64,000 bases of DNA from Blastocatellia bacterium (GCA_963698325.1 CAVOQJ010000010.1:318245-382244), one strand, 5' to 3'; positions 1 to 18,333 are shown, numbered from the stretch's first letter. Numbers and translations: made by a program. The notes: generated by a model from the letters alone, not told the origin.

Positions 1-3000
1 GGTGTGGTTTCCAGCGTCTATTATAGCGACGCCCTGGATCGACCGACCCAAACGATCAGCGCAGTCAACCCGAGCACTTCCATCATGACCCAGGCCTCGA
101 TCAGTTACGATGACCTCAATCACACCGTCACCACGACCAGTGATCAAAGTACTTATGGTGATAACGCACTCATCGGCCAGACTCTTTACGACGGCTTGGG
201 CCGCACAATTGAACGGCGGCAGTACGAAGGCGGTACAAACTATATTACGGTGCAAACGCAGTATGACGCGTTGGGTCGTGCCTTCAAAGTATCGAATCCA
301 TTTCGGCCGTGGCAAAGTGAAGTCGCCATTTGGACCACCACCGTCTTTGATGCGCTTGGGCGCGTGCTTACTTTGACCACTCCGGACAGCGCCGTGGTGA
401 CCACCAGCTACAGCGGCAACACGGTGACCGTGACTGATCAGGCTGGTAAGCAGCGCAAGAGCGTGACCGATGGCCTGGGCCGTCTTAGGGAAGTTTATGA
501 GGACCCGACCGGGCTAAACTATCTGACGAGCTACGCCTACGATACGCTTGACGATCTGACTACTGTGACCCAGGGAGTGCAAACACGCAGCTTCGTTTAC
601 GATTCACTCAAACGCTTGTCTTCTGCCACCAATCCTGAGAGTGGGACTCTTAGTTATCAGTACGACGCGAATGGGAATTTGGTGGTGAAGACCGACGCAC
701 GAGGCGTCTCTTCCCACTATTCCTACGACGCACTGAACCGTTCGCTGCGGCGCTGGTACAACGGCTCTAGTCTGACCACTGCTACTGTCAATAACACTCC
801 CGCTTTGCCCTCCGGCGTTGGTTCTAGCGACGAAGCCAACTATTTTTATGATGCACAGACTCTGGCTATAGGCGCACCGACTTTCTCGCGCGGGTATTCA
901 ACCGGGCGTTTGGTAGCGATGACTTATGGCACCGGCAGCAGTGCTGGTGATTATTACGGCTACGATGCCGGCGGCCGCGCGCTCCTGAAGATTCAACAGA
1001 CCGGCGGCATCAATTTCCAGACGAGCGCTAGCTACAATCTGGTTGGTGCTCGCACCGGCGAGACCTATCCTTCAGGCCGCACGGTCAGCTATGCGTATGA
1101 CACCGCCGGTCGCACCAGCAGCTTCACTGGCAATTTGGGTGACGGCGTCAATCGCAATTACGCCACCGAGATTATTTATTCGCCGCTGGGCGGTATGACC
1201 AAGGAAAAGTTTGGCACCGACACCGCCCTTTACAACAAACTCTTCTACAACTCACGCGGGCAGTTGTCGGAGATCCGCGAGGGCACGAGCTACACCGGCC
1301 CGAACGACACCGGCTGGGAACGCGGCGCCATCATCAACTACTACGGCGATTGCTGGGGTATGTGTGGGGGCAGCAATAGCACTACGCCGATGACCAACAA
1401 TAACGGCAATCTGAAGAAGCAGGAGATATTCGTTCCCGGCGCCAGTTCGTGGTTGCAGCAATACGACTACGACAACCTGAATCGGTTGCAGGGTGTAAGT
1501 GAATCCACCGGCGGCACGACATTGTGGCGGCAGGAGTATGTCTACGATCGCTACGGCAATCGCACGATTCACCAAACAAATACCTGGGGCGCCGGCATCA
1601 ACAAGAAAGACTTCACGGTGAACGCGGCCAACAACAACCGCCTTGGTGTGCCCGCCGGACAAACCGGCACAATGTCTTATGACGCAGCCGGGAATCTCAC
1701 CACTGACACCTACAGCGCGGCAGCCGTGACCAGGACGTACGACGCGGAAAACCGCATGACCTCAGAAACGCAGGCGAACAGTTTCGTGGCCGGCGTCTAC
1801 ACCTACAATGCCGACGGGCAGCGCGTGCGGCGCACGGTCGGCGGTCAGCCCTCAGCCGTCACCACTTGGCAGGTGTATGGTTTCACTGGCGAGTTGCTGG
1901 CTGAGTATGCGGCCGCTGCCGCGCCCGCGAGTCCGCAGAAAGAGTATGGCTATCGCAATGGACAATTGTTGGTGACCGCAGTGCCGGCTGCCGGAGCGCG
2001 CGTGAATTTCGCTCTGGCCGCAAACGGAGGATACGCCACCGCTTCCTCTTCCCTCAGTTTGAGTTTCACTCCCAACGCTACTACAAACGGCGACCGTAAA
2101 GGAATTCATTGGGGAACCGGCCCGCTCACTGGCAGCGGCTGGGTCGACGTATCCAGCGGTGTTTTTCCTGACTGGCTGCAGATCGATTTCAATGCAACTA
2201 AGACGATTGACGAGATCGACGTTTTTACGATTCAGGACAACTACCTGGATCCAGTCGAGCCGACCGAGACCATGACGTTCAGCACCTACGGTCTGACGGC
2301 TTACGACGTGCAATACTGGAATGGCTCAGCTTGGGTGGCGGTGACTGGCGGCAGCACCAGCGGCAACAACAAGGTATGGCGGAAACTCACATTCTCGCCG
2401 GTTAGCACGAGCAAGATCAGAGTGCTTACCAACGCCGCGGCTGATAATGCCTACAGCCGGATGGTCGAGCTGGAGGCCTGGGGCACAGTCGGCGGAGGAG
2501 GAGTTGATCTAAACTGGCTGGTGGCGGACCAGTTGGGCACGCCGCGGATGGTGTTTGACAAGACGGGCGCGCTGGCAAACGTGAAGCGTCACGATTACCT
2601 GCCGTTTGGTGAAGAGTTGTCAGCGGGCGTGGGCCAGCGCACCACCACGCTCGGCTACAGCGTGGATGGGGTGCGGCAGAAGTTCACCCGCAAAGAACGA
2701 GATAATGAAACCGGCCTCGATTACTTCGAGGCACGCTACTATGCCAGCACGCAAGGAAGATTCACAGGCGCAGACAATCCCGGCTTTTCTAATGGGACTG
2801 ATCCTCAAACTTGGAACCTTTATGCTTACACGGCAAACAATCCCCTACGCCGCGTGGATCCGGATGGGCGTGATTGGTTTCAGATTGGCAGTGGGTATGG
2901 TGCTCGATTTGAATGGCATGAGGGTACGGAACACAAATACAGGGATGCGGACGGCAATGAACAGACGGCAACGAACGTCGGCACGCACTTGCTTGTATTT

Positions 3001-3549
3001 GAATTTTCCTTTAATGCCGACGGATCCATAAGAAGGAATTCCGATGGGGCAGCCGTTGGAACGCTCACGCTTTATAACCAGAACCAAGTGGCTGCACAAA
3101 ACACGGAAGCGTTTACAGGGGGTCGTGCATCCGATGGATCTCAGTACAATGATATCCCCCTCGGAGTTTTTACAATCCGCACAGACATAAGAGAGCGCGC
3201 CTCAGATGCGACTGCCTTAAAGCCTGATAATCCCCGGGAGTTGAGGCCGATCTATGGGCTTCAAGAAATCGATAGGTCCCTCGGGTTTGCTGATCCGTGG
3301 GGAACGAAGAGAGCAGCTCTGAACGAGTGGGATACTAGCCTGCCGAAGCCGTATCGAGGTAATTATCTACACGGTCATGACCGTGCATCAAGCTCCACCG
3401 CCGGGTGTATCGGTGATCGGCCGCAAACCGTGGTGGACGCCATTTTTTCAATAAACTCTAGGGTGACTCCAAGAGTAAAAGCGGTCGTCACCGATGGGCC
3501 TCCGAAGAGCCCTGATCTTCGGCCTGGACCGTATGTTATTCGCCCATGA
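1..3549 (+). CDS. RHS/YD-repeat polymorphic toxin (5' end outside window) with discoidin-like insert, RHS core and divergent C-terminal toxin tip
   Basis: Unbroken 1181-codon ORF with many YD repeats (YDALGR, YDANGN, YDAAGN, YNADGQR). RHS core reads [14 protein letters not shown]...[10 protein letters not shown]...[18 protein letters not shown]...[12 protein letters not shown], followed by an unrelated tail. Confidence 0.92.
2002..2500 (+). other. F5/8 type C (discoidin)-like domain inserted between the YD shell and the RHS core of RHS1
   Basis: Segment [16 protein letters not shown]...[19 protein letters not shown]...[14 protein letters not shown]...KIRVLTNAA...[10 protein letters not shown] matches the usual discoidin/galactose-binding-like pattern. 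Boundaries are approximate. Confidence 0.6.
2872..3546 (+). other. RHS1 C-terminal toxin tip, YkuD (L,D-transpeptidase)-fold-like
   Basis: Starts directly after the DPDGR core end. Contains [10 protein letters not shown] (like the TPxGxFxI motif) and YLHGH-x8-STAGCIGD (like HG[T/H]...S/T-x-GC-I-R, the catalytic His/Cys of YkuD domains). Confidence 0.5.
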
Positions 3550-3588
3550 GTTCACTACACTTGGGATTGAAGTAGGGGGGACGAGGAG

Positions 3589-4230
3589 TTGAAGACAATG
3601 ATTCTTTTGTGGATCTTGTGTTGTGCTTTAAGCTGCGGTCGCTCTAATGCCATTGTGCCAGTTGCGCGGCAAGTGGCTGGAGCAAGCTCCGAACAAAACA
3701 CGCCGACCCTAACCAACAAGCAACTGGCAGCCGGGCCTATTGAGTTCTTTGCATCGTGGAAAGGTTCGTACATAAAACTTGAGCGATGGAAAGATACCAG
3801 CGATCCAAATATCGCTCATCCTGAAGCCTTTGATGTCTTGTGCCGAATAGAAAACAAGGGAGACTCGGCCGTCCAAGACGGTGACTTCATTCTCCTGACA
3901 ACTATTGACTTCATTATTGCCCCAACGTACCTGTATCAAGGTGAAGTACAAAAAATCATTCAGGAGCACAGCTGGAGTCGAGTCAATAGTATGGACGATG
4001 TCAAGATGGAGAAGATTCCTTACTTGAAACCTGGCGATCGGGCGCAAATCGGAATCAAAGGCTTCAACTTGGCCAAGACTTTCAAACAGTTTAACGGGGA
4101 AGAGGATACTCTTTGGCCGTGGGCACTGAGAGTGAACGTTCGCATTCTCAACCGCGATATGACCCAAGTTGCGCTTGGGCAAGCCATACTTCCAATGATT
4201 CCCGCTGATCGCAGATTGAGCACTAAATAG
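3589..4230 (+). CDS. Putative cognate immunity protein of RHS1, exported (signal peptide, possibly lipoprotein)
   Basis: Begins 40 nt after the RHS1 stop, preceded by a purine-rich GGGGGGACGAGGAG. The N-terminus MKTMILLWILCCALSCGRS is hydrophobic and Cys-containing. I recognise no family. Confidence 0.6.
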   Translation: MKTMILLWILCCALSCGRSNAIVPVARQVAGASSEQNTPTLTNKQLAAGPIEFFASWKGSYIKLERWKDTSDPNIAHPEAFDVLCRIENKGDSAVQDGDFILLTTIDFIIAPTYLYQGEVQKIIQEHSWSRVNSMDDVKMEKIPYLKPGDRAQIGIKGFNLAKTFKQFNGEEDTLWPWALRVNVRILNRDMTQVALGQAILPMIPADRRLSTK

Positions 4231-4299: not shown

Positions 4300-5169
4300 T
4301 TGACAACTTGCTCTCGCGCGGAAGCGGGCGCGTGGTTCAACTACCCGTTCTTAACCCTCAAAGAACGGGATAACGAAACGGGGTTGGATTATTTCGTTGC
4401 GAGGTACTATTCAAATGCACAAGGTAGATTCACAAGTGTTGATCCCGAGAATGCGGGAGCAGATGTTAGTGACCCGCAGAGTTGGAATGGCTACGTCTAC
4501 ACTCGCAATGCGCCGACAGTTCTCGTCGATCCAGATGGGCGCGAGTTTGAAATCTGCTATTCAAACGGAGACTGTCACACCTACAGCGACGAGCAATTCG
4601 ACAAACTCAAAGCTGATGCGACCCAGCTTGGCTCAGTTTTTAAGGATAACAAGATCTATAACGAGGTCGATGGGAATCTGGTCGCAACTGCTAGCTATAG
4701 GCGCACCGGCGCTGATGACTTCAACGACTTTGCCAACGGCGTGTTCTTTGGAAGAGGTGAGAGCGCCGGACTCGTTGAGCGGGCTCCCGTCGCAGGAAAG
4801 GCGGCAGTCGGTGCATGGGCAGGAAGCCTCGTAGTCGGGGCTTCAGGCGGGTTGGCGCTCTATTATGGGCCTGCGGTCATCGGAGTCATCCTTGAACGCG
4901 GGCCCACCGTAATAAGTATCGGCGCGAAGATTGAAAAACAACTCAGGAAGCGCGGCTGGACTCAGGAAGAAGTTGAAACAACCGTGTCTCGACCATATAG
5001 GACGGTAAAAACAAGAGATACGAGACATTTGCCTAACGGTACTCGGATGAACGATCCTGCTACTGCTTACGTCAACAAGGATGGTAGCTATGTAGTCCGA
5101 AACGACCGTACTGGTGACATCGTTCAAATTTCAGACAAGGGCAAACCAGGCTGGAAATCGCCCTTTTAG
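4300..5169 (+). CDS. Orphan RHS C-terminal cassette 1 (core remnant plus toxin tip, no YD shell, no credible start)
   Basis: The frame is open from the immunity stop codon at 4228-4230. Core remnant reads [33 protein letters not shown]...WNGYVYTRNAPTVLVDPDGR, followed by a unique tail with a Gly/Ala-rich hydrophobic stretch and a ~80-aa C-terminal module. Confidence 0.8.
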   Translation: MTTCSRAEAGAWFNYPFLTLKERDNETGLDYFVARYYSNAQGRFTSVDPENAGADVSDPQSWNGYVYTRNAPTVLVDPDGREFEICYSNGDCHTYSDEQFDKLKADATQLGSVFKDNKIYNEVDGNLVATASYRRTGADDFNDFANGVFFGRGESAGLVERAPVAGKAAVGAWAGSLVVGASGGLALYYGPAVIGVILERGPTVISIGAKIEKQLRKRGWTQEEVETTVSRPYRTVKTRDTRHLPNGTRMNDPATAYVNKDGSYVVRNDRTGDIVQISDKGKPGWKSPF

Positions 5170-5177: not shown

Positions 5178-5525
5178 GTGATCATGCTGACAGAAACTCA
5201 AGTCTTTGAGCAGTTCGCGCCCATCGGAATCGTATCAGAAAATGGGGAAATATATATTCCGAAGAGGAAGGCGTCCGACTTTATTGATCTCTGTGAAAAC
5301 AATCAACTGGCCGTAATCGGAATGGAGGGATTCATTTATGAGGATAGCAAGTTTATTCCGCAACTAGATTTGATAGCTGACTACTCCTCTTCTGAGTTTG
5401 GGGACTGGATATCATACATGGAAACCTGCAATTCGGCAGCCCGAGCCTTTATTGAAAGCGCAAAATCTAAGGATAACCTCTTTTTCACTTTTGTTGTTTT
5501 ATCTCCCCAAGAAGTAACAAAGTGA
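5178..5525 (+). CDS. Putative immunity protein for orphan cassette 1 (cytoplasmic, acidic)
   Basis: 115-aa ORF starting 9 nt after the orphan tip stop. It has no signal peptide. The call rests on position in a toxin-immunity array. Confidence 0.55.
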   Translation: MIMLTETQVFEQFAPIGIVSENGEIYIPKRKASDFIDLCENNQLAVIGMEGFIYEDSKFIPQLDLIADYSSSEFGDWISYMETCNSAARAFIESAKSKDNLFFTFVVLSPQEVTK

Positions 5526-5998: not shown

Positions 5999-6016
5999 GT
6001 CTGCTGCTTAATTGAA

Positions 6017-9000
6017 GTGGCCACCTTTGGCGGTACGGCGCAACCACCCTCGAGCGGCTCCGGTGGCATCTTCACCGGCAACGTGACCACCAGTTACGAC
6101 GCAAACTTCACCACTGTCACCGATCAGAACGGAAAACTTCGCCGCAGTATGGTAGACGGTAGCGGCAGACTGGTGCGGGTTGACGAGCCAGACGGTAACA
6201 ACAATCTCGGGACGACCGTCAGCCCGGTTCAACCCACCAGCTATACCTATGACGTTTTTGGCAACCTGAGGACGGTGGTCCAGGGCTCGCAAACGCGCAG
6301 CTTCACTTACGATTCACTCTCTCGACTGCGCAGCGCGATAAACCCGGAGAGCGGCACTGTTAACTATACCTATGATGACAATGGCAACTTGCTGACCAAG
6401 ACCGATGCGCGCGGTATCACTAGCACCTACACATACGACGCGCTCAATCGCAACACGTTGGTTGATTATTCGGATGCGACGCCTGATTCCTATCGTCAAT
6501 ATGATTTGGCCATCAATGGTAAGGGACGAATCAACCAGGTTTGGCAAAGTGGATCAACAACAGCAGCGACTTACATTGATGAGTACGACGCACTGGGCAG
6601 GACTCGGGTGCAACGCCAACGCTTTGAGACAGGCGGCGTTTGGAGTGGGTCCTATAAAGTACAGCGCACTTACGACCTCGCCGGCCACGTGAAAACGCAA
6701 ACATATCCTTCCGGCCACACAGTCACTTACAACTACGATCAGGCCGGGCGTCTGGGCGATAAGGATGCTCAGAACCTGGCCTTCACCGGCAACCTCGGCG
6801 ACGGCGTGGCGCGCACTTACGCTACCGCGGTTACCTACAGCGCATTCGGCAGTTTGCAACAGGAGCAGTTTGGAACACAGACACCGCTCTATCACAAGCT
6901 GCACTATAATGTGCGGGGCCAACTCAATGACATTCGACTGAGCACGGTGGCTTGGGCGACTGACCAATGGAACTGGAACCGTGGCGCCATCGTCAACTAC
7001 TACGCCTCGGCTGAACTGGCATGCCCGACGCCTGCCTGTAGAGCCAACAGCGGACCGGACAACAACGGGAATCTGATCCGTATGCAGCATTGGATCCCCG
7101 CCAACGAGCAGATGAGCAGCTACAACTACACGGAGGATCGCTACACCTACGATTCCCTGAACCGGCTCAAGTCTGTTGCCGAGTACCATGGCTGGCAGAG
7201 CGGCTTCAGCGGGCAAGATTTCACGCAAATCTACGACTACGACCGTTGGGGTAATCGCACGATCAACCCGGCCACAACCAATGCGCCAGAGCCCCAGTTC
7301 ACCGCCAGCAGCGCTACTAACAGATTGGGTGTGCCTGCGGGCTACACCGGCCGAATGGACTACGACGCGGCCGGCAACCTCATAAACGACACTTACACCT
7401 CCTATGGAAGAACTGATGGAACTCCCACTCGCCTGTACGACGCTGAGAATCGTTTGACCACCGCCAAGGACGGCAGCCTCCAGGTGGTCAGCAGCTACAG
7501 CTACAACGCCGATGGCCAGCGCACGCGGCGCAAGGTAAATGGCGTGGAGACGTGGCAAGTCTATGGCATGGATGGCGAGCTATTAGGTGAGTACGCGTCC
7601 GGCGCCGGGGCCTATTTGCCGGCGACCGAATACGGTTATCGCGGCGGCGAGTTGCTCACAAGCATCAGCAGCGGTGACACGCAACGGTTGTCCCGCTTCG
7701 TTACCAACCTCTACTATGGCGCGCTGCAACGGGACCCGACCCCAGCGGAGTCGCAGGATAAGATTAATCAACTGGCTGCGGCCGGCGCCCAGAGTCAGGC
7801 GCAGTTGCTGACGATAGCGAGCCAGATTGCCCGTTCGCTTTTTACTTCCACCAACTACGAGACTTCGCCTTATAATTCCGACGTTCAATACGTCACGGAT
7901 CTTTACTATGCCTATCTGCAGCGCGGGCCGGACGACAGCGGACTCAATTTCTGGGCGGGACAAGCAGCGAGCAGTCGCGTGAATGTCTGCAACGCATTCG
8001 AGGCGAGCGGGGAGTTTCAGACGCTGGTAGCCACGCTCTACGGCACGGCTGCTTCGGACAACGAGCGCACGGAGCATTTTGTCAACGACTTCTACCTTGG
8101 CGCTTATGGCAGGAATGCAACTGCTACAGAGTTGCAGCAGCAACGCGATGCTCTGAACGCAGCAGCGGCACAAAGTCAGGCCTCAGTTCAAACACAGGCG
8201 GAAACGTTCGGGCGCTCGCTGTTTGTGACACAGGTCAATGATGCGAGCTTGAGCAACACGCAATACGTCACCAATCTTTACGAGGCATTCCTGCAACGTG
8301 GGCCTGATGCCGGCGGACTGAGCTTCTGGTCGGGACAGGCGAGCGTAGGAACTGGGCGGCAGAATGTCTTAAACGCATTTGCCACCTGCGGAGCGTTCAG
8401 AGAACTAGCCGGCACGCTTTATCGCGAAGCCAACTGGCTGGTCACGGATCACCTCGGGACGCCGCGCATGATCGTGAACAAGAGCGGTAGCCTGGCGAGC
8501 GTTAAGCGGCATGATTATTTGCCATTTGGCGAAGAGCTTTACGTCGGCACCGGGGGAAGAACCACCACACAAGGTTATAGTGGCGACAGCGTCCGTCAGA
8601 AGTTCACCCGCAAAGAACGGGATAATGAAACCGGCCTCGATTACTTTGGCGCCAGGTACTATGCGAGCACACAAGGAAGGTTCACAAGCGCAGATGAACC
8701 CCTCGCTGACCAAGATGAAGACGATCCACAAAGCTGGAATCTGTATCAGTATGCAGGAAACAATCCGCTGTTATTCACTGATCCCACGGGAATGTGGAAA
8801 TGGGTTGATCCAGACCAAAATGGTAATAGGTTTCTTCAATGGGAGGAAGGTGACGATTGGCAGACATTAGCCACGTTCTTGAACAACAATAGCGATGACA
8901 CCTATTACAGGGAAGACCTGGAAAAAGCCTTTTCCAGCGGCGGTCTTGGAGAAGAAACGATCGTTGACGTTACGGGTGCTATTCCGAAATTCACGAATAC

Positions 9001-9856
9001 TCGAGGTGGAGTTGATTCGAGTGTGAGTTGGGATCTTGTACCTTTTGGCGGCGGAGCTAAGGTCGCATCGAAAGCTGGCATTTTTCGAAGAATCGCACGG
9101 GCGTTCGGGTTTGGAGCAGCAAGGAATACTGTAAAGATTCCTGCGCGAAAAGCTTTGCCGGTTTTGGCGAGAGCAGTGTGTTTTGTTGCGGGAACACCAG
9201 TCCTGACAAAGGAAGGTTTGAAGCCGATCGAGGAAATCAAAGAAGGAGACAAAGTTCTCAGTTACAACGAACAGACCAAGCAAACCGAATACAAGACAGT
9301 AGTTCGAAGTATTGTTCGATTCGCGGAAGCAGAAAAATTGCTATTGGTAAAAGTTGAAGGCGAGGTTGAGACTTTAGGCCTAACAAATGAGCATCCGTTT
9401 TTTGTGCGGATCCACAGAGCGAGAGACAACACAGCAAGTGACAATGACGACGGCGAATGGCGAAAGGCGGGCGAGCTACAAGTTGGTGACTTAATCCGCA
9501 AAGCCGATGGAACTTGGGCGATAGTTGAGAACATCAGCCGGCGAAGTAAAGGCGAGGCGGTATACAACTTCGAGGTTCCTGACAACCACAACTACTTTGT
9601 CGGACAAACGAGTCTGCTGGTCCATAACAACGATGATTGCATCGTGAGGACATTACAAACCGGGGGGCGCAGAATAAGAAAGAGCACTGCCGAGGCATTA
9701 GGTCTCACTAAAGAACAAGCAAAAAACGCTATTGAAGCGTTGAAGAAAGCTGAGGGGGTGGGAAATAATGTCCATCAAAAAATCATGAGTAACGGTGATC
9801 TGGTTAATTCACACACGGGAGAAGTCATCGGGAATCTCCACGATTATGTGCCTTGA
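6017..9856 (+). CDS. RHS/YD-repeat protein 2, N-terminally truncated relative to RHS1, with DUF4214-like repeats, RHS core, Hint domain and short toxin tip
   Basis: 1279-codon ORF starting at a GTG right after a stop. Its first residues (VTTSYDANFTTVTDQNGKLRRSMVDGSGRLVRV) align to an internal part of RHS1 ([33 protein letters not shown]). Core reads WLVTDHLGTPRMIVN...[10 protein letters not shown]...[18 protein letters not shown]...NNPLLFTDPTGM. Confidence 0.9.
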   Translation: MATFGGTAQPPSSGSGGIFTGNVTTSYDANFTTVTDQNGKLRRSMVDGSGRLVRVDEPDGNNNLGTTVSPVQPTSYTYDVFGNLRTVVQGSQTRSFTYDSLSRLRSAINPESGTVNYTYDDNGNLLTKTDARGITSTYTYDALNRNTLVDYSDATPDSYRQYDLAINGKGRINQVWQSGSTTAATYIDEYDALGRTRVQRQRFETGGVWSGSYKVQRTYDLAGHVKTQTYPSGHTVTYNYDQAGRLGDKDAQNLAFTGNLGDGVARTYATAVTYSAFGSLQQEQFGTQTPLYHKLHYNVRGQLNDIRLSTVAWATDQWNWNRGAIVNYYASAELACPTPACRANSGPDNNGNLIRMQHWIPANEQMSSYNYTEDRYTYDSLNRLKSVAEYHGWQSGFSGQDFTQIYDYDRWGNRTINPATTNAPEPQFTASSATNRLGVPAGYTGRMDYDAAGNLINDTYTSYGRTDGTPTRLYDAENRLTTAKDGSLQVVSSYSYNADGQRTRRKVNGVETWQVYGMDGELLGEYASGAGAYLPATEYGYRGGELLTSISSGDTQRLSRFVTNLYYGALQRDPTPAESQDKINQLAAAGAQSQAQLLTIASQIARSLFTSTNYETSPYNSDVQYVTDLYYAYLQRGPDDSGLNFWAGQAASSRVNVCNAFEASGEFQTLVATLYGTAASDNERTEHFVNDFYLGAYGRNATATELQQQRDALNAAAAQSQASVQTQAETFGRSLFVTQVNDASLSNTQYVTNLYEAFLQRGPDAGGLSFWSGQASVGTGRQNVLNAFATCGAFRELAGTLYREANWLVTDHLGTPRMIVNKSGSLASVKRHDYLPFGEELYVGTGGRTTTQGYSGDSVRQKFTRKERDNETGLDYFGARYYASTQGRFTSADEPLADQDEDDPQSWNLYQYAGNNPLLFTDPTGMWKWVDPDQNGNRFLQWEEGDDWQTLATFLNNNSDDTYYREDLEKAFSSGGLGEETIVDVTGAIPKFTNTRGGVDSSVSWDLVPFGGGAKVASKAGIFRRIARAFGFGAARNTVKIPARKALPVLARAVCFVAGTPVLTKEGLKPIEEIKEGDKVLSYNEQTKQTEYKTVVRSIVRFAEAEKLLLVKVEGEVETLGLTNEHPFFVRIHRARDNTASDNDDGEWRKAGELQVGDLIRKADGTWAIVENISRRSKGEAVYNFEVPDNHNYFVGQTSLLVHNNDDCIVRTLQTGGRRIRKSTAEALGLTKEQAKNAIEALKKAEGVGNNVHQKIMSNGDLVNSHTGEVIGNLHDYVP
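7684..8425 (+). other. Four DUF4214-like repeats inserted before the RHS core of RHS2
   Basis: Recurring pattern: FVTNLYYGALQRDPTPAE, YVTDLYYAYLQRGPDDSGLNFWAGQ, FVNDFYLGAYGRNATATE, YVTNLYEAFLQRGPDAGGLSFWSGQ. Two of the repeats end in AFxxxGEF/AF. Confidence 0.6.
9179..9628 (+). other. Hint (hedgehog/intein-like, pretoxin-HINT type) domain in RHS2
   Basis: Starts CFVAGTPVLTKEGLKPIEEIKEGDKV and ends YNFEVPDNHNYFVGQTSLLVHN. The residue after HN is Asn rather than Cys/Ser/Thr, which favours cleavage over splicing. Confidence 0.8.
9629..9853 (+). other. 75-aa C-terminal toxin tip of RHS2, family unknown
   Basis: Sequence NDDCIVRTLQTGGRRIRKSTAEALGLTKEQAKNAIEALKKAEGVGNNVHQKIMSNGDLVNSHTGEVIGNLHDYVP follows the Hint domain. 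The call is positional only. Confidence 0.45.
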
Positions 9857-9871
9857 TTGGTATCGGTGAAT

Positions 9872-10324
9872 ATGGAAGAAACTAAAGAAACAGACATTTT
9901 GATGTGTAAGACAGATTCTGAATTCATGGTTCTTACTCAAGAGAAGGACTGTCATATTGTTACCCAAGAGCTTGGTATTACACCTGACAGGTTTCATCAG
10001 AAGGGAGAGAAAACTTATTCAAAGTTTTCTCCGAACCCGGGAATTCATCAAAGTGGACTTTGGGCGATCTCCAAGGTTTCTGTCGCTGAGGAAGCTTCTA
10101 TATCTGAACACATAAGACACTTTCAAACGATACTCGGAGACAAATTAGAAGTGATCAAGAGGCTCAAACAACATTACGGCTTTGAGTGTGTGTTTTATGT
10201 CTTGATTCATACTGAAGACGCCGGCGAAGCGTTTGATTTGGATGAAGCGGAGCTAGCTTTTATAAACAAAATTTCTAATCGGTTCACTTGTTCTATCGTG
10301 GCAATTGAGGGGAGTCTAAAGTAG
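9872..10324 (+). CDS. Putative immunity protein of RHS2 (DUF4279-like by recollection)
   Basis: ATG lies 16 nt after the RHS2 stop, and there is no signal peptide. Pattern ELGITPDRFHQKGE...SGLWAIS...ISEHIRHFQTIL...FECVFYVLI resembles DUF4279-type proteins. Not verified. Confidence 0.55.
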   Translation: MEETKETDILMCKTDSEFMVLTQEKDCHIVTQELGITPDRFHQKGEKTYSKFSPNPGIHQSGLWAISKVSVAEEASISEHIRHFQTILGDKLEVIKRLKQHYGFECVFYVLIHTEDAGEAFDLDEAELAFINKISNRFTCSIVAIEGSLK

Positions 10325-10427: not shown

Positions 10428-11205
10428 TTGAGACTCGATCGAAGACCTCACGCACCTTGCCGGCTGGTCGGGCTTTTCTTAGCTGCTGACGGTTCTTTGA
10501 CAACTTGCTCTCGCGCGGATGCGGGCGCGGGCTTCAACTACTCGTTCTTAACCTCAAAAGAACGCGACGATGAAACCAAGCTGGATTACTTCCTTGCTCG
10601 ATACTACTCATCGACCCAAGGGCGGTTCACCAGTCCTGATGAGTTCAGCGGTGGTCCGGACGAATATTATGAGTTCCATGATCTGGCTTCGGAGAACCCA
10701 ACCTTCTACGCGGACCTGACCGATCCGCAGTCACTCAACAAATATCAATACTGCTACAACAACCCGCTTCTCTACATCGATCCCGATGGGCATCAGGGCG
10801 TAAGAGAGTGGTTCAGAAACACTCTCAATGGAGCCGCGTCTACAGTTTCGGAAAACAACGGCTTCGGCAGAATGGATGCGCCACAAACCACAACCGGACG
10901 CGCGATTGGTCACGTTATCTCCATCGCACAAGGCGGCGCTGAGATCTATGGTGGTGTTTCGGCGGTAGTAGCCGGGGGTGGGGGAGGCAGTCATAACGGC
11001 CCCGGCGGCTGGCACCGGCGTGGGCGTTCTAGTACCGGCAGCGGGAGTTGCTACCGCCGGTGTAGGCGCTATAGTAACCGTCCATGGGGGTGCCGTCCTT
11101 GTCAACACGGTCACGAACATCTTCAGTAAGAACAATTCGCAACAGAGTTCTGGCGCGAATCAGGCAAAAGAAGGCCGAGCCACCAAAGAAAGACCAATCG
11201 GTTGA
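10428..11205 (+). pseudogene. Orphan RHS C-terminal cassette 2, frameshifted and decayed
   Basis: Core remnant FLTSKERDDETKLDYFLARYYSSTQGRFTSPDE...YNNPLLYIDPDGH. The Gly/Ala-rich hydrophobic stretch continues in another frame (ORF 10978..11205: APAAGTGVGVLVPAAGVATAGVGAIVTVHGGAVLV), implying a frameshift near 10975-10985. Further short fragments follow up to 11361. Confidence 0.7.
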
Positions 11206-11361: not shown

Positions 11362-12330
11362 ATGATGTACGACAAGCTGACAACGGAAGCGTTAGTCGAG
11401 AAGGCCGAGCAGTTAGAGGAGTCAGGAATGCTTAACGAAGCAATAGAAGTCTGGCGTGTCGCCACTCAGCGTGAGGCAGATCCGGTCATCCTTTGCGAAT
11501 TTGCGAGTTTAGCAATGAAACTGGGGAACTGGTCTGCTGCGGAGGAGGCCCTAATGACAGCAGTTAATCTCACTCCAGAGCTGCCCAACCCACATACTCT
11601 TCTCGGATTCTTATACTTTGAACGGGACATGTTAGAAAAAGCAGTTAGCTGTTTCCAAAAGAGCCTGGCGCTCGAAACAAGCGCCGGTGTCTTCACATCA
11701 TTAGGTGTAGCTCAGCTTGAGCTCGGTTTGACTGAAGATGCGAGAGCAAGTCTGGAGCAAGCAGTAAGAATCGATCCAGATTACGAGGAGGCTTATTACA
11801 ACCTAGGGTTGAGTTATAGGGAGACCGAGCCGTTGAGGGCAATTGATTTATTTGAGAAAGCCATCCACGCCGATCCCGAATACGCGATGGCACATCGAGA
11901 ATTAGGTTGGGCTTTAAGTCAGCTTGATGGAAAGGATGCCGAAGCGGAGTACCACGTTCGAAGAGCCGTCGAACTAAATGATGAGGATGGGTGGGCCCAT
12001 ATTTATCTTGGAAACATTTTCTGGCAAAGAGATGATCTGAGTTCTGCCGAGCAATCTTTTAAGAAGGCTGTTAGAGTCTGGTCAGAGATCGCTGTTCCAT
12101 ACTGGTGTCTCGCACTGTTCTACGAATATCAGGGAAGAAAGGAGGAAGCTGAAAGGCTTTATCAGCAAGGACTCGATCTAGATCCGGACGATCCTCAAGC
12201 AAACAAGCTGTTTGGAATCTACCTGAGGGACATTGGAGAACTGGCAAAGGCTAGAACATATCTGGAGCGGGCGCATGCGCTTGATCCCGAAGACAAGGGT
12301 ATTACCGAAATCTTGGCTAAAGTGAGTTAA
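11362..12330 (+). CDS. TPR-repeat protein (possible immunity/accessory gene of the decayed orphan cassette)
   Basis: 322 aa with repeated TPR-like units (AIEVW..., AVSCFQKSLAL, AYYNLGLSYRE, AMAHRELGWAL, AEQSFKKAVRV, AERLYQQGLDLDP). Its ATG overlaps a preceding stop (TAATG). Confidence 0.75.
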   Translation: MMYDKLTTEALVEKAEQLEESGMLNEAIEVWRVATQREADPVILCEFASLAMKLGNWSAAEEALMTAVNLTPELPNPHTLLGFLYFERDMLEKAVSCFQKSLALETSAGVFTSLGVAQLELGLTEDARASLEQAVRIDPDYEEAYYNLGLSYRETEPLRAIDLFEKAIHADPEYAMAHRELGWALSQLDGKDAEAEYHVRRAVELNDEDGWAHIYLGNIFWQRDDLSSAEQSFKKAVRVWSEIAVPYWCLALFYEYQGRKEEAERLYQQGLDLDPDDPQANKLFGIYLRDIGELAKARTYLERAHALDPEDKGITEILAKVS

Positions 12331-12431: not shown

Positions 12432-13388
12432 GTGAATCGCACGGGAACAAATCCTCCTCCTAATCCCAAAACAAAAGCTGTCGCAATCATCCCCGCTCGC
12501 TACGAGTCTGTTCGTCTGCCGGGCAAAGCACTGCTGGAAATCGCCGGAAAGCCCATGATTTGCTGGGTTGTGGAGCGCGCGCTGGCCGCCCGAAATGTCG
12601 CGCGCGCAATCGTGGCGACGGATGACGAGCGAATAGTCGCGGCAGTGAAATCTGCCGGTTATGAAGTGGTGCTGACTCGCCGGGATCATCGCAGCGGTAC
12701 GGATCGGATTGCCGAAGTCGCAGCTTCAATCAAAGATGCCGACATCATTGTCAACGTGCAAGGTGACGAGCCTTTGATTTCGCCGTCGACGATCGAGCAA
12801 GCGGTGGAGGCCATGGGGGAAAAGGAGAACGCGGGAAGAGGGGAACTGGGAAACGGGGAAAAAGGGGAAGGGGGAAAGGGTAAGGGGGAAGACGCGGAGA
12901 CGTGGAGACGCGGCGACGCGGGGAACCACACCAGTGATGGGAGTGAGGTAGGGATTGTTACGACTTGGGAGCCGATGGAGTCGGTGGCCGATGTTTTGAA
13001 CCCGGACGTAGTGAAAGTTGTCGTAGACGAAAGCGAACGCGCACTGTATTTCTCACGTCTGCCTGTGCCTTTCCCCCGTGATGCGGTGCGAAGGTACGGC
13101 AGCCTGGACGCAGCGTTAAGTAATGAACCTTCACTGTTGTCCAGTTTTCGCAAGCATACCGGGCTATATGTTTACCGGCGCGAGGTGTTGCTCGAGTTTG
13201 CGGGGTGGCCGCAGTCGGAGTTGGAGCGATTGGAGTCGCTCGAACAACTGCGAGCGTTGGAACATGGTGTGAAGATCAAAGCAATCAAGGCCAGCACGTC
13301 GTCGATTGGCGTGGACACGATGGAGGATTTGGAACGGGTACGTTCGATTGTTGAGGAAGAGAATTGCAGTTTAGAGTTCAAGCTTTAG
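12432..13388 (+). CDS. kdsB: 3-deoxy-manno-octulosonate cytidylyltransferase (CMP-KDO synthetase) with a ~44-aa low-complexity insertion
   Basis: AIIPARYESVRLPGKALLEIAGKPMICWVVERA, GTDRIAEVA, IVNVQGDEPLI, VKVVVDESERALYFSRLPVPFPRD, LEQLRALEHG and GVDTMEDLERVR are collinear with E. coli KdsB. Confidence 0.9.
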   Translation: MNRTGTNPPPNPKTKAVAIIPARYESVRLPGKALLEIAGKPMICWVVERALAARNVARAIVATDDERIVAAVKSAGYEVVLTRRDHRSGTDRIAEVAASIKDADIIVNVQGDEPLISPSTIEQAVEAMGEKENAGRGELGNGEKGEGGKGKGEDAETWRRGDAGNHTSDGSEVGIVTTWEPMESVADVLNPDVVKVVVDESERALYFSRLPVPFPRDAVRRYGSLDAALSNEPSLLSSFRKHTGLYVYRREVLLEFAGWPQSELERLESLEQLRALEHGVKIKAIKASTSSIGVDTMEDLERVRSIVEEENCSLEFKL

Positions 13389-13444
13389 CTTGGGTCTTCG
13401 CTGCGTCAGCAACCCAAAGGTTGAACTCTGAACCACTTGATTTT

Positions 13445-13798
13445 ATGAACGACTGGATTGGATTAGCGATAATTGGCTTCATTGTTTTGTGTGCCCTGCT
13501 CGCGCTATGGCGGCTTTCCAAACCTTACGAAGTCAGCGTGGAGGAGTTTGAGAAGCGCGCCGCTGAGGCGCCGAGCTTGTTGAGCGCCGGCTTTGTCGGC
13601 CTGCAAAAGATTCTCGATCCGGCAACAGCGAAGGCTGTGGACGCGCAGGAGGATCTCAAGCAAGGGCGCTTTGACAGCGAGCAGGCGAAGGGCGACGGAG
13701 ATGAGGCGGGGGCAGACGGCAGGAGGCAGGAGCAGCAGGCAGGCGCAGACTGCAGGAGCAGGAGGCCGACGGCAGGAGGCAGGAGCAGCAGGCCCTAG
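13445..13798 (+). CDS. Small membrane protein, hypothetical (low-complexity C-terminus)
   Basis: MNDWIGLAIIGFIVLCALLALW is a TM helix. The C-terminus is encoded by reiterated GCAGGAGGCAGGAGCAGCAGGC words, so the true stop is uncertain. Confidence 0.4.
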   Translation: MNDWIGLAIIGFIVLCALLALWRLSKPYEVSVEEFEKRAAEAPSLLSAGFVGLQKILDPATAKAVDAQEDLKQGRFDSEQAKGDGDEAGADGRRQEQQAGADCRSRRPTAGGRSSRP

Positions 13799-15583
<1,785 letters not shown>

Positions 15584-15651
15584 AGTGGTCCGATAAACTT
15601 TCCGAACCTCTGGTCAATGTGAGTCTTAAGGTTCGGTCTTGAGTGCTGACG

Positions 15652-15795
15652 AACCAGCGGGGGCAAGCCCACCTTCCCGACCTGGAGACTCTCTGATGAG
15701 TTCGGTAGATCCACGTTGAAAGCCTTTCAAGCAGAAATCACGACTGAATTCTGATCAGCTCGTGGTCGGGAAGGCGGGCTTGCCCCCGCTGGTTA
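15652..15795. repeat. Hairpin element, family A (GCGGGGGCAAGCC...CCTTCC arms)
   Basis: AACCAGCGGGGGCAAGCCCACCTTCCCGACC (15652-15682) is the reverse complement of GGTCGGGAAGGCGGGCTTGCCCCCGCTGGTT (15765-15795) with one mismatch. Lies 3' of pyrG. Confidence 0.8.
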
Positions 15796-15802
15796 GCTGG
15801 CG

Positions 15803-15872
15803 CTCTGTGGTGAGTGATTGTTGAGCGTTTATTTACCACGGAGACACAGAGAACACAGAGGTTGCACAGAGG
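15803..15872. repeat. Hairpin element, family B (CACAGAG words), short copy
   Basis: CTCTGTGGTGAGTG...TTTACCACGGAGACACAGAGAACACAGAGGTTGCACAGAGGAG. The right arm closely matches the copies at 41181-41225 and 48439-48484. Confidence 0.75.
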
Positions 15873-15961
15873 AGATGTCAAGCTAAGACACTACCCTCGC
15901 TCGCTACCGCTTGCGGTTCGTTTAGGTAATAATGCTATCAACTCAGTTTATCGGGTTTCAT

Positions 15962-17467
15962 ATGCTTCATTGCCCTACATGCGGCCGGCATTATTCAGCC
16001 GCCTTCGCGATTTGCCCGGATGATCAATCGCCGTTGCAGGCTGATGCCACGGCCGGTGGGCCTTCTCTGGTTGACCCGCTCGTGGGGCACACGCTTGACG
16101 ACAAGTATCACCTCGAGGCACGCCTGGGTATTGGTGGCATGGGCACGGTCTATCGCGCGCGGCATTTACTAATTGATCGGCCGGTAGCTGTAAAAGTTTT
16201 GAACCAGCGCTTCGTCGAAGACGAGGCTGCGCGCACGAGGTTTCGTCGCGAAGCCAGAGCGGCTGGACGGTTGCAACATACGAATGCTGTTACAGTCACT
16301 GACTTTGGCGAATCACATGATGGCTACGTTTATCTGGTAATGGAGTTGCTTGAGGGCCGCACGCTTCGCGATGTGCTGGCCAAAGAAGCGCCGCTCGACG
16401 CGGCACGATCAGTTTCATTGATGTTGCAGATTTCCGCCGCGGTGGGCGCAGCACATGAAGCAGGCATCATTCACCGCGATTTGAAACCGGCCAACATATT
16501 CATCGTCCAGCGTGCGGAGGTTCCGGCACTCGTGAAGGTTTTGGATTTCGGCATTGCAAAACTGGCTGCCGACTCACTCGACGAAGACGAGCCGATGACA
16601 TTAACTCAAGTTGGGACCATGATTGGCACCCCACGCTACATGGCGCCTGAACAGTGTGACGGAGCGGTGTTGACTCCGGCTGCCGACGTTTACAGTCTCG
16701 GCGTCATTCTTTATGAAATGCTCACGGGCACAGTCCCTTTCAGCGGCTCTACCCCATTGGCAATCGCGATGAAGCACACGTCGGAGATTCCGCGCAATCC
16801 GCGGGACCTTGTTTCGTCGATTCCGCCGGCATTGGAGCAAATCGTACTCCACACGTTGGAAAAGCGTCCGCATGATCGACCGGCCGATGCGGAGGAGTTT
16901 CGGAGAGAATTACTGGAGACGGCAGAGCGGCTTGGGCTCGAACACGCGGCCGTTACCAGTTCGCCCAATCTGAAAGCCCTGCGCGACGTTGGCACTGAAT
17001 CGCCATCCGGCCGTCTGGTGATAGACATCTCACGCTTGCGGGAAAGCCGCGCCACAAACTCTGGCGCGACTGAAATAACAGTTATCGGTTCTTCATCGGT
17101 CCGCGGCAATGAAACAGATGGCTCCGGGCGCGCTGTCAAAAAGACCAGTTCCTTCCCCAGAGTGTCTGTACCGCTTAACGTTACGGAGAAGTCAAAAAAA
17201 CAAATCGGAATGATCGCCGCCGTAGTACTAGCCGCAGCACTCTTGATCGGCATAACATTCACGCTGAGATCTCGGAACGCAGCTGTCACAACCGACCCCG
17301 TCGTCGCGGCCAGCCCAAGTCCCTCGGTAGAGCCAAGCCCGTCGCCAACGCTCGCACAAACGCCAAAGCCCCCGGAAAGAAAGCCGGCTGTTAAGCCGAA
17401 GGAGGAGGACCCAAAGAAGCGTTCGCTATTGAACAAGGTCAAGCGGATATTGAAGAAACCATTTTAG
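15962..17467 (+). CDS. Hanks-type Ser/Thr protein kinase with N-terminal Cys motif, one TM helix and a Pro/Lys-rich tail
   Basis: [42 protein letters not shown]-terminus reads [11 protein letters not shown]...CPDD. TM helix is [19 protein letters not shown]. Confidence 0.9.
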
Positions 17468-17481
17468 AACCGGAAAGTCTC

Positions 17482-18333
17482 ATGACGGACGTTCAGGTAA
17501 AACCTTTTCAAGTTGGTAATGTGACATTCGGTGACGGCCGCTTGACCATCATCGCCGGCGCTTGTGTTATCGAATCACGCGAACATGCATTGATGATGGC
17601 CCGCGAGTGCGCAGCGCGCGCGCGCGCGGCCGGATTGGGTTTCGTTTACAAGTCATCATTCGACAAAGCCAACCGCTCGTCGCTGAAAAGTTTTCGCGGG
17701 CTGGGAATGGAAGAAGGACTTCGTGTCTTGAGCGAGGTGAAGGAGGAAATTGGCGTTCCCATCCTTACCGACGTTCACGAGGTAGCGCAGGTCGGCCCCG
17801 TGGCTGAGGTCGCTGACATCCTGCAAATTCCCGCTTTTCTTTCGCGGCAGACGGACCTGGTTCTCGCAGCCGCGCGCTCGGGCCGGTCCGTCAACATTAA
17901 GAAGGGGCAGTTTCTGGCTCCTCAGGATGCGCGCAACATTGTGGATAAGGCGCGGGCGGTTGGCTGTGAAAAACTAATGCTCACGGAACGCGGCGTAAGT
18001 TTTGGTTACAATAATCTCGTCGTGGACATGCGATCGTTTCCGATCATGCGTGAGTTTGGCGTGCCCATAGTGTTTGATGTGACGCATTCGCTGCAACTTC
18101 CGGGGGGCCTCGGGCATGCAACCGGGGGGCAATCGGAATACATCGAACCGCTCGCGCGCGCCGGTGTTGCCTGCGGAGTCGATGCGGTTTTCATGGAAGT
18201 GCACGAGTGTCCGGAACGTGCTCCTTCAGACGGGCCAAATGCACTTCCGCTGGAACGAATGGAAGCATTACTGCTAATACTCCGCGACATTCATAGACTT
18301 GTGAACAATGATTCGGCCGGAGCGTTCGCGTAA
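17482..18333 (+). CDS. kdsA: 2-dehydro-3-deoxyphosphooctonate aldolase (KDO-8-P synthase)
   Basis: [92 protein letters not shown]. Confidence 0.93.

What the first reader, a model, noticed from the sequence alone, without database searches (positions are those of the whole stretch)
2872..4230. RHS tip that looks like a YkuD/L,D-transpeptidase-fold enzyme, paired with an exported immunity protein
After the DPDGR core end, the 225-aa tip carries [10 protein letters not shown] and [18 protein letters not shown]. These resemble the substrate-loop and His...Cys catalytic motifs of YkuD-type L,D-transpeptidases.

Its downstream partner is the only one of the three immunity candidates in this locus with a signal sequence. 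That is what one expects if the toxin acts on peptidoglycan in the periplasm.

L,D-transpeptidase-like effectors are known from type VI secretion (Salmonella Tlde1). I am not aware of a described RHS-encapsulated version.
Basis: inference. Interest (0 to 1): 0.65.

Follow-up and report, generated by a model that had tools for sequence, protein, structure and literature searches.

The report
RHS toxin tip: Tlde1-like cell-wall peptidase
The C-terminal tip of this RHS protein is a distant relative of the Salmonella cell-wall toxin Tlde1 (L,D-transpeptidase fold) and sits next to a conserved exported lipoprotein that probably protects the producer, but RHS toxins carrying this type of peptidase were already described in 2012 and 2020, so it is a new member of a known kind.

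Summary
The 225-aa tip after DPDGR (window 2872-3549) carries both quoted motifs.

The tip itself hits no Pfam or NCBIfam model. A profile of 36 diverse relatives matches only Tlde1a among all PDB sequences (E 6e-7; hhalign 97%, E 1e-10). It aligns the family-invariant H172 and C184 with the catalytic H121 and C131 of Tlde1a. Thirteen of 36 relatives weakly hit Pfam YkuD. An AlphaFold model (pLDDT 95) has Tlde1a as its top Foldseek hit, with an L,D-transpeptidase third.

The downstream gene more likely starts at ATG 3598 (210 aa, not 213). It belongs to an uncurated family with an invariant lipoprotein-type cysteine. It follows the toxin on at least three other independent contigs, and its divergence tracks the toxin's. 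Distant toxin relatives are followed by other signal-peptide proteins. A periplasmic, peptidoglycan-directed action is therefore the best inference, though it is untested.

The novelty claim fails. Zhang et al. 2012 defined Tox-LD-peptidase on RHS toxins, and Sibinelli-Sousa et al. 2020 reported Rhs-DUF2778 (Tlde1) fusions.

What is new is modest:
- an Acidobacteriota clade missed by curated models;
- probably Sec-dependent rather than T6SS delivery;
- a new immunity family;
- Ala in place of the His of the (S/T)HGC motif.

The parts
4..2871 (+). RHS shell, 5'-truncated by the window edge, ending in the core motif DPDGR (2857-2871)
   Evidence: Pfam RHS_repeat E 5e-20 with 8 stretches. The core end aligns to YenC2/TccC/Rhs core ends in the PDB. 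DPDGR was translated.
2035..2469 (+). F5/8 type C (discoidin / NedA-like galactose-binding) domain inserted in the RHS shell (aa 678-822)
   Evidence: Pfam PF22633 E 2.8e-7 and PF00754 E 7.5e-5.
2872..3549 (+). 225-aa C-terminal toxin tip, an L,D-peptidase (Tlde1/YkuD-superfamily) domain. A conserved N-terminal beta-rich extension of about 60 aa precedes the catalytic domain. The stop codon is at 3547-3549.
   Evidence: define the family. Searches give the profile match to Tlde1a. One search gives the AF2 model (pLDDT 95.4). One search gives Tlde1a as the top Foldseek hit.
3154..3183 (+). [10 protein letters not shown], the family motif IPxGxYxI, which aligns to Tlde1a AIPEGNYKLF
   Evidence: G103 is conserved in 61 of 64 members.
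3364..3417 (+). Catalytic motif [19 protein letters not shown]172 (3370-3372) and C184 (3406-3408) are invariant in 64 family members. T181 is nearly invariant. A182 replaces the His of (S/T)HGC.
   Evidence: Searches give the conservation. Searches align H172 to Tlde1a H121, T181 to S128, A182 to H129 and C184 to C131. Residue roles are from PMC9638812.
3583..3588 (+). Shine-Dalgarno GAGGAG, 9 nt upstream of ATG 3598
   Evidence: Sequence read.
3598..4230 (+). Candidate immunity gene: a 210-aa exported protein, probably a lipoprotein. The invariant Cys13 codon is at 3634-3636. It belongs to an uncurated family.
   Evidence: family of 50; 38 aligned, Cys invariant. Searches show it immediately downstream of toxin homologues. 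Searches find no PDB or Pfam relative.

Best explanation
This is an RHS polymorphic toxin. Its C-terminal cargo is a thiol L,D-peptidase of the YkuD/Tlde1 superfamily, and the next gene is its cognate periplasm-facing lipoprotein immunity protein.

Shown:
- RHS repeats end in the DPxG core motif.
- The 225-aa tip is homologous in sequence profile and predicted fold to Salmonella Tlde1a.
- The His, Ser/Thr and Cys that Tlde1a needs for catalysis are kept.
- An exported-looking partner gene is conserved with the toxin and diverges along with it.
- The host genome encodes KDO and TolC-type functions, so it is a diderm.

Inferred:
- The tip is released from the RHS shell by autoproteolysis at the core end.
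- It reaches the periplasm of a neighbouring cell.
- C184 (activated by H172) attacks the mDAP3-D-Ala4 bond of peptidoglycan stem tetrapeptides. The result would be L,D-carboxypeptidase trimming and/or D-amino-acid exchange, which starves the cell of cross-linking donors and weakens the sacculus.
- The lipoprotein blocks the enzyme in the producer's own periplasm.
- Delivery is probably Sec-dependent export of the RHS protein rather than T6SS, because full-length relatives start with Sec signal peptides and have no PAAR domain.
For: Homology to Tlde1a:
- Profile versus PDB sequences gives Tlde1a as the only hit, E 6e-7. With the RHS core included the value is E 9e-8.
- hhalign gives 96.95% and E 1.3e-10 over tip residues 99-186.
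- 13 of 36 members hit Pfam YkuD, best E 2.6e-6. One has a precomputed weak YkuD hit.

Fold:
- The AF2 model has pLDDT 95.4 and pTM 0.92.
- Foldseek ranks 1-2 are Tlde1a (E 2.4e-4, prob 1.00, TM 0.54-0.57 on the target). Rank 3 is an L,D-transpeptidase, 4lpq.

Active site:
- H172, C184 and G149 are invariant. R152, T181 and G173 are nearly invariant in 64 sequences.
- They align to Tlde1a H121, C131, G94, R97 and S128.
- Ala mutants of H121, C131, W93, R99, S128 and H129 abolish Tlde1a toxicity (PMC9638812; preprint).
- The His-Cys spacing is short (11 residues in 44 of 64 members). The spacing is also short in DUF2778 and longer in classical YkuD.

Immunity:
- Homologues lie directly downstream of toxin homologues on L001/L002, L003/L004 and L007.
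- Identity tracks the toxin: toxin 82% with partner 70%, toxin 53% with partner 33%, toxin 43% with partner 35-37%.
- The Cys after the hydrophobic core is invariant.
- Distant toxin members have different downstream proteins that also start with signal or lipoprotein peptides.

Host and delivery:
- The window has KdsB-, KdsA- and TolC-like genes, pointing to a diderm host.
- Close relatives are in Pyrinomonadaceae and Chloracidobacterium.
- Full-length relatives have Sec signal peptides and no PAAR.
Against: - No enzymology or toxicity data exist for this family.
- The window's own tip hits no Pfam or NCBIfam model. The link needs a family profile.
- No family member hits Pfam DUF2778 at E <= 1.
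- The His of (S/T)HGC is Ala in this clade (13 of 64 members). The equivalent Tlde1a H129A variant lost toxicity and most cross-linking activity, although it kept D-amino-acid exchange (PMC9638812).
- Foldseek TM-scores are moderate (0.42-0.57).
- I could not inspect the model's coordinates for His-Cys geometry.
- The RHS N-terminus lies outside the window, so the export route is inferred from relatives only.
- How a Sec-exported RHS cargo would cross a target's outer membrane is unknown.
- The lipobox is non-canonical (ALSC).
- No signal-peptide predictor was run.
Confidence: 0.72

Rival explanations
1. The fold and nucleophile are the same, but the bond attacked is different. The tip would be a YkuD-fold thiol enzyme that does not trim stem tetrapeptides. 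It might instead mainly exchange D-amino acids, cleave 3-3 cross-links, or detach or attach envelope proteins to peptidoglycan. It would still act in the periplasm.
For: - A182 replaces the His that positions D-Ala4 in Tlde1a. The H129A variant keeps wild-type D-amino-acid exchange but loses most L,D-transpeptidase cross-linking and part of the L,D-carboxypeptidase activity (PMC9638812).
- The R99 equivalent is Ala in the window's clade and Arg in only 28 of 64 members.
- The capping-subdomain region between YGLQEI and WG is short in this clade.
- The family has an extra N-terminal beta-rich extension and a clade-specific C-terminal tail that Tlde1a lacks.
Against: - The core pocket residues are conserved with Tlde1a: the W/Y-G, the R, Y-x-H, T and G-C.
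- No data point to any specific alternative substrate.
Confidence: 0.18
2. The tip is a degenerate or inactive L,D-peptidase domain because of the H-to-A change in the SHGC motif, or the cassette is no longer a working toxin-immunity pair.
For: - All tested active-site Ala variants of Tlde1a, including H129A, lost toxicity in E. coli.
- The window has GCIG where close relatives have GCIC.
Against: - The Ala, Leu or Ile at this position is shared by the whole clade. Within that clade H172, T181, G183 and C184 are strictly kept across 53-84% identity, and the partner gene is retained. This pattern indicates purifying selection on an active site.
- The ORF is intact and fused in frame to a full RHS core.
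Confidence: 0.06
3. The similarity is a chance motif match, and the tip is an unrelated toxin acting in the cytoplasm.
For: The single sequence has no database family hit.
Against: Three independent lines agree: the profile-sequence match, the profile-profile match and the predicted fold. The immunity candidates are exported across the family.
Confidence: 0.02

Closest known systems
Tlde1a (STM14_0336; formerly Tae5) of Salmonella Typhimurium, PDB 7UMA/7UO3/7UO8; Pfam DUF2778 (PF10908)
   Same: - L,D-transpeptidase-type fold.
- Aligned catalytic His, Ser/Thr and Cys, the WG..R..L segment and the IPxGxY segment.
- Short His-Cys spacing.
- Antibacterial effector logic, with an adjacent exported immunity protein.
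   Different: - Only about 18-23% identity. No family member reaches Pfam DUF2778 at E <= 1.
- Here the domain is fused to an RHS shell instead of being a free 173-aa T6SS cargo.
- It has an extra conserved N-terminal extension of about 60 aa and, in this clade, a 20-aa C-terminal tail.
- Ala replaces H129.
- The partner is a 210-aa lipoprotein of an uncurated family downstream of the toxin. Tlde1a's partner is the 138-aa DUF2195 protein Tldi1, encoded upstream.
- No T6SS link was seen.
Rhs-DUF2778 fusions (Tae7/Tlde1c family, e.g. Shigella sonnei WP_052983304.1), Sibinelli-Sousa et al. 2020 preprint 10.1101/2020.02.18.954545
   Same: An L,D-peptidase toxin domain at the C-terminus of an RHS protein.
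   Different: - Those are proteobacterial, lie next to PAAR/T6SS genes and are recognised by DUF2778.
- This family occurs in Acidobacteriota and other non-proteobacterial metagenome lineages, has Sec signal peptides on full-length members, and is not recognised by DUF2778.
Tox-LD-peptidase of polymorphic toxin systems (Zhang, Aravind et al. 2012, PMC3482391)
   Same: - Defined as an LD-peptidase-fold toxin domain with conserved H, S and C.
- Found on RHS-repeat proteins exported by 'T2SS' (Sec), T6SS or TcdB/TcaC routes, in several phyla including Bacteroidetes and Chloroflexi.
- Predicted to attack peptidoglycan peptide links.
- The present family fits this definition.
   Different: - The immunity families listed there are Imm16/DUF2750 and Imm57. 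The partner here matches neither (no Pfam hit at E <= 1).
- Acidobacteria are not in their phyletic list.
- I could not check sequence identity with their seed members.
Classical YkuD-domain L,D-transpeptidases (Pfam PF03734; e.g. 4LPQ, LdtMt2, Ldtfm)
   Same: Same fold class and the same His...(S/T)xGC nucleophile motif. Weak direct Pfam hits for 13 of 36 family members.
   Different: - The housekeeping enzymes have a longer His-Cys spacing (14-17 residues before the S/T) and a conserved Arg after GC(h).
- They carry PG-binding or lipoprotein anchors and have no RHS carrier or immunity gene.

Membership tests
RHS polymorphic toxin | YD/RHS repeat shell | tested here: met
   Pfam RHS_repeat E 5e-20, 8 stretches.
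RHS polymorphic toxin | Conserved core end (PxxxxDPxG...) that demarcates a variable C-terminal toxin | tested here: met
   [12 protein letters not shown] at the junction. It aligns to the core ends of YenC2, TccC and Rhs in the PDB. D1 and G4 are invariant in A4. Composition drops from about 0.58-0.60 GC in the core to 0.47-0.53 across the tip and partner gene.
RHS polymorphic toxin | Cognate immunity gene immediately downstream, plus orphan tip/immunity cassettes | tested here: met
   The partner is conserved downstream in other contigs. An orphan tip (4300-5169, Colicin_E5) and a further orphan tip lie in the window. In L001 the same toxin type is itself an orphan cassette. Immunity function itself was not tested.
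YkuD / L,D-transpeptidase superfamily | YkuD-type beta fold | tested here: met
   AF2 model pLDDT 95.4. Foldseek top hits are Tlde1a (prob 1.00), then the L,D-transpeptidase 4lpq (E 0.34). This rests on a predicted structure only.
YkuD / L,D-transpeptidase superfamily | Catalytic motif H-x(n)-(S/T)-H-G-C-h with invariant His and Cys | tested here: inconclusive
   H172, T181, G183 and C184 are present and family-invariant or nearly so. The His before Gly-Cys is Ala in the window (H in 39 of 64 members, A in 13). The spacing is 11 residues, shorter than in classical YkuD.
YkuD / L,D-transpeptidase superfamily | Match to Pfam PF03734 above its threshold | tested here: not met
   The window tip has no hit at E <= 1. 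13 of 36 relatives give weak hits, best E 2.6e-6.
Tlde1 / DUF2778 T6SS effectors | Sequence membership in DUF2778 (PF10908) | tested here: not met
   None of 36 members hits PF10908 at E <= 1. The family profile does match the Tlde1a sequence itself (E 6e-7; hhalign 97%). This indicates a sister family, not a member.
Tlde1 / DUF2778 T6SS effectors | Secretion by T6SS (genes near VgrG/PAAR/Hcp, or a PAAR-Rhs fusion) | tested here: inconclusive
   The N-terminus of this RHS lies outside the window. I found no PAAR domain in the five full-length relatives I scanned. At least seven of the 13 full-length relatives I listed start with a Sec-type signal peptide. No T6SS domain turned up among 28 further large window ORFs I scanned. 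The rest of the genome was not seen.
Tlde1 / DUF2778 T6SS effectors | Periplasmic immunity protein of the DUF2195 (Tldi1) family | tested here: not met
   The partner is exported-looking, but 38 family members have no Pfam hit and no PDB relative.
Tlde1 / DUF2778 T6SS effectors | L,D-carboxypeptidase / D-amino-acid exchange activity on peptidoglycan; toxicity only in the periplasm | not testable with these tools
   Needs expression and muropeptide analysis.
Tox-LD-peptidase (Zhang et al. 2012) | LD-peptidase-fold domain with conserved H, S, C at the C-terminus of an RHS or other polymorphic toxin carrier | tested here: met
   compared with the definition quoted.
Tox-LD-peptidase (Zhang et al. 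2012) | Linked immunity Imm16 (DUF2750) or Imm57 | tested here: not met
   No Pfam hit of any kind for the partner family at E <= 1, apart from scattered chance-level matches.

The most novel reading that the evidence does not exclude
This clade may be a distinct branch of L,D-peptidase toxins that curated models miss, carried by Sec-exported, non-T6SS RHS proteins of Acidobacteriota and other soil and sediment phyla.
- Its natural His-to-Ala change in the (S/T)HGC motif may shift the chemistry towards D-amino-acid exchange or another peptidoglycan edit rather than carboxypeptidase trimming.
- It is neutralised by a new lipoprotein immunity fold.
- The conserved beta-rich extension of about 60 aa right after the RHS cleavage site could be an entry module that takes the enzyme across a target outer membrane without a T6SS.
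Probability: 0.2. Interest if true: 0.55.

Novelty: new member of a known kind. Interest (0 to 1): 0.3.

Why it matters
It extends the Tlde1/LD-peptidase toxin class to Acidobacteriota (Pyrinomonadaceae and Chloracidobacterium relatives) and to RHS carriers that appear Sec-dependent.

It also shows that current Pfam and NCBIfam models miss a sizeable family: about 70 representatives at 50% identity cover the toxin domain.

It supplies a new candidate immunity family that could be used to find orphan immunity genes.

For annotation, it gives a concrete function to tips now labelled only 'RHS repeat-associated core domain-containing protein'.

It does not change the concept, because RHS-borne L,D-peptidase toxins are already in the literature.

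Tried and rejected
- Direct Pfam and NCBIfam scans of the tip and partner gave no relevant hit.
- phmmer of the single tip against PDB sequences gave only a chance hit.
- AF2 with the shallow 19-sequence alignment gave pLDDT 47 and was unusable. I replaced it with the 64-sequence alignment.
- My representative search used an alignment that still contained the RHS core end. Many of its 58,717 hits are therefore generic RHS cores. I kept only hits covering profile positions beyond about 250.
- The first profile search against the PDB (A1) hit only RHS and teneurin core ends, for the same reason.
I repeated it with five close sequences.
- I tried to recover the RHS N-terminus from the source contig through the partner protein. 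Only a 1.6-kb contig was returned.
- The published Cell Reports version of the Tlde1 paper is not held, so I used its bioRxiv preprint.
- I considered a lipobox-independent Sec signal for the partner. The Cys is invariant across 38 sequences, which favours lipidation, but the -3/-2 positions are non-canonical.
- I considered that the ~160-aa downstream proteins of distant family members might be homologues of the 210-aa partner. They look like a different family. I did not test this by profile comparison.
Full report
**1. What is in the sequence**

- ORF 4..3549 (+) enters the window already in frame and shows 1181 aa.
- It carries eight RHS-repeat matches (E 5e-20). An F5/8 type C / NedA-like galactose-binding domain is inserted at aa 678-822.
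- The RHS core ends in [12 protein letters not shown] (DPDGR = 2857-2871). The 225 residues from 2872 to the stop at 3547-3549 are the variable tip.
- G+C falls from about 0.58-0.60 in the core to 0.47-0.53 over the tip and the next gene. This is usual for exchangeable RHS cassettes.

**2. Family of the tip**

- Alone, the tip matches no Pfam or NCBIfam model and nothing meaningful in the PDB.
- It has 18 close relatives (53-84% identity). All are RHS C-termini or short 'orphan' cassettes that begin inside the RHS core, and none has a Pfam annotation.
- An exhaustive HMM search of 1.84 billion representatives added about 70 more distant proteins that cover the toxin domain. These include full-length RHS proteins of 1180-2047 aa.
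- In an alignment of the tip with 63 of them, G149, H172 and C184 are invariant (numbering from the D of DPDGR). R152, L155, G173, T181, F86, G88, G103 and G134 are nearly so.
- The family consensus around the motif is GNYLHGK-x6-THGCICDRSE.

**3. Relationship to Tlde1 and YkuD**

- A toxin-only profile of 36 sequences (A4) searched against all 177,635 distinct PDB sequences finds only Tlde1a of Salmonella Typhimurium (7UO8, 7UMA, 7UO3), at E 6e-7.
- hhalign of the same profile against the Tlde1a fragment gives 96.95% probability and E 1.3e-10 over tip residues 99-186.
- The alignment pairs the following residues:

| Tip | Tlde1a |
|---|---|
| IPLGVF | IPEGNY |
| W148-G149 | W93-G94 |
| R152 | R97 |
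| Y170 | Y119 |
| H172 | H121 |
| T181 | S128 |
| A182 | H129 |
| C184 | C131 |

- H121 and C131 are the catalytic pair. S128 bridges them. H129 and W93 line the D-Ala4 pocket. Ala substitutions at all of these abolish toxicity (PMC9638812; preprint 10.1101/2020.02.18.954545).
- Thirteen of the 36 family members individually give weak hits to Pfam YkuD (best E 2.6e-6). None hits DUF2778.
- With the 64-sequence alignment, AlphaFold2 gives a confident model (pLDDT 95.4, pTM 0.92). The shallow alignment had failed (pLDDT 47).
- Foldseek against the PDB ranks Tlde1a first and second (E 2.4e-4, probability 1.00, TM 0.54-0.57 on the target). An L,D-transpeptidase (4LPQ) is third, and everything else is noise.
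- The family shares with DUF2778 the short His-to-Cys spacing: 11 residues in 44 of 64 members here, against 9 in Tlde1a. The preprint notes that this spacing is shorter in DUF2778 than in YkuD.
- I conclude that the tip is a genuine member of the L,D-peptidase superfamily. It is closest to Tlde1 but lies outside the current DUF2778 model.

**4. Differences from Tlde1a**

- In the window and its close clade, the His of (S/T)HGC is Ala (Leu or Ile in some). Across the family it is His in 39 of 64 and Ala in 13.
- In Tlde1a, H129A kept wild-type D-amino-acid exchange. It lost most cross-linking, part of the carboxypeptidase activity, and toxicity.
- The R99 equivalent is Ala here (Arg in 28 of 64).
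- The family has a conserved beta-rich extension of about 60 residues directly after DPxG (DWFxI...WxWxxG...YxDxxG...LLVF).
- The close clade has a C-terminal tail ([21 protein letters not shown]).
- These features leave the exact bond specificity open.

**5. The partner gene**

- A GAGGAG Shine-Dalgarno at 3583-3588 lies 9 nt before ATG 3598 and abuts the TTG at 3589. The database copy is 210 aa (P0165). The gene is therefore most likely 3598-4230.
- A profile search found 50 relatives. None has a Pfam domain or a name.
- In 38 aligned sequences, the Cys that follows the N-terminal hydrophobic stretch is invariant. It is preceded by a small residue (S, G, A, or once N; contexts ALSC, ISGC, ASSC...). 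This is the signature of a lipoprotein signal peptide, although positions -3 and -2 are not canonical in the window.
- The family has no PDB or Pfam relative. It is therefore not DUF2195/Tldi1, Imm16 or Imm57 by sequence.
- Homologues sit directly downstream of toxin homologues on independent contigs: L001/L002, L003/L004 and L007.
- Their divergence tracks the toxin's: toxin 82% with partner 70%, 53% with 33%, 43% with 35-37%. That is the behaviour expected of an effector-immunity pair.
- Three distant toxin members are followed by different ~160-aa proteins that also start with Sec or lipoprotein signal peptides. Export of the partner is therefore a family-wide property. This supports a periplasmic site of action by inference.
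- The other two immunity candidates in the window (5178-5525 and 9857-10324) have no such N-terminus.

**6. Host and delivery**

- Close relatives are in Acidobacteriota MAGs (Pyrinomonadaceae, Chloracidobacterium).
- The window also encodes KdsB-like and KdsA-like enzymes and a TolC-type outer-membrane protein. The host is therefore a diderm with a periplasm.
- The RHS N-terminus is outside the window, and I could not retrieve it.
- Full-length family members begin with classical Sec signal peptides (for example P0019, P0044, P0045, P0061, P0094, P0101). They show DUF6443, PKD and Ig domains but no PAAR.
- No T6SS domain was seen among 28 other large ORFs of the window that I scanned.
- Delivery is thus more like the 'T2SS/Sec' class of RHS polymorphic toxins than like T6SS. 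This is inference.

**7. Comparison with what is known**

- Zhang et al. 2012 (PMC3482391) defined Tox-LD-peptidase: LD-peptidase fold; conserved H, S, C; RHS repeats; T2SS/T6SS/TcdB routes; Imm16 and Imm57. They proposed that it attacks peptidoglycan peptide links.
- The Tlde1 preprint reports DUF2778 at the C-terminus of Rhs proteins in 11% of Tae7-family genomes, and cites Zhang et al.
- Specific to this case are:
  - the lineage (Acidobacteriota);
  - invisibility to curated models;
  - the likely non-T6SS carrier;
  - the new lipoprotein partner family;
  - the Ala at the H129 position.
- I rate it a new member of a known kind.

**8. Verdict**

- Observation: confirmed.
- Interpretation: the fold and the exported partner are supported; the novelty claim is not.
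- Mechanism, confidence about 0.7: an RHS-delivered thiol L,D-peptidase edits stem peptides of the target's peptidoglycan and is neutralised by a periplasm-facing lipoprotein.
- Interest: 0.3.

Noticed in passing
window 4300-5169 and 5178-5525: An orphan RHS C-terminal cassette that starts inside the RHS core (…[16 protein letters not shown]…DPDGR). It carries a Colicin E5 tRNA-nuclease domain (Pfam E 1.2e-31). A 115-aa ORF with no signal peptide and no Pfam hit follows it and is probably its immunity gene.
   Followed up: partly
window 6017-9856 and 9857-10324: A second RHS gene that begins at a point equivalent to about residue 140 of the visible part of the first one, so it looks N-terminally truncated. 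It has two DUF4214 domains inserted where the first RHS has its F5/8 type C domain. It has a PT-HINT pretoxin domain (aa 1062-1204, E 1.6e-20) followed by a short C-terminal segment of about 75 aa with no assigned family. The abutting 155-aa gene is DUF4279 (E 1.5e-14).
   Followed up: partly
window 10428-11129 and 11362-12330: A third orphan RHS tip cassette. It has a Gly/Arg-rich, low-complexity C-terminus and no Pfam hit. A 322-aa all-TPR protein follows it. Whether that protein is related to the toxin locus is unknown.
   Followed up: no
window 2035-2469 versus about 7700-8400: The two RHS shells carry different inserted domains at the equivalent position: F5/8 type C (carbohydrate-binding) in the first and DUF4214 x2 in the second. 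This suggests a swappable, possibly surface-exposed module within the shell, for example for target binding.
   Followed up: no
L001 (Pyrinomonadaceae MAG JAXIOV010000226.1) 6001-7559: In this relative the same L,D-peptidase toxin (82% identity) and its partner form an orphan cassette downstream of a 2067-aa RHS with a Laminin_G_3 domain. In the window the toxin is fused to the main RHS. This is direct evidence of cassette exchange.
   Followed up: partly
L008 1087-1572, L009 1066-1545, L010 1046-1543: Distant members of the toxin family are followed by a different family of ~160-aa proteins with signal or lipoprotein peptides, weakly similar to one another. This looks like a second exported candidate immunity family for L,D-peptidase RHS tips.
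   Followed up: partly
window 55478-61634 (- strand): Four consecutive large ORFs (437, 572, 661 and 392 aa) have no Pfam hit at E <= 1e-5.
   Followed up: no
window 12432-18333: Housekeeping block: a KdsB-like cytidylyltransferase, CTP synthase, a Ser/Thr protein kinase and a KdsA-like DAHP_synth_1 enzyme. I used it only to infer that the host has LPS and a periplasm.
   Followed up: partly
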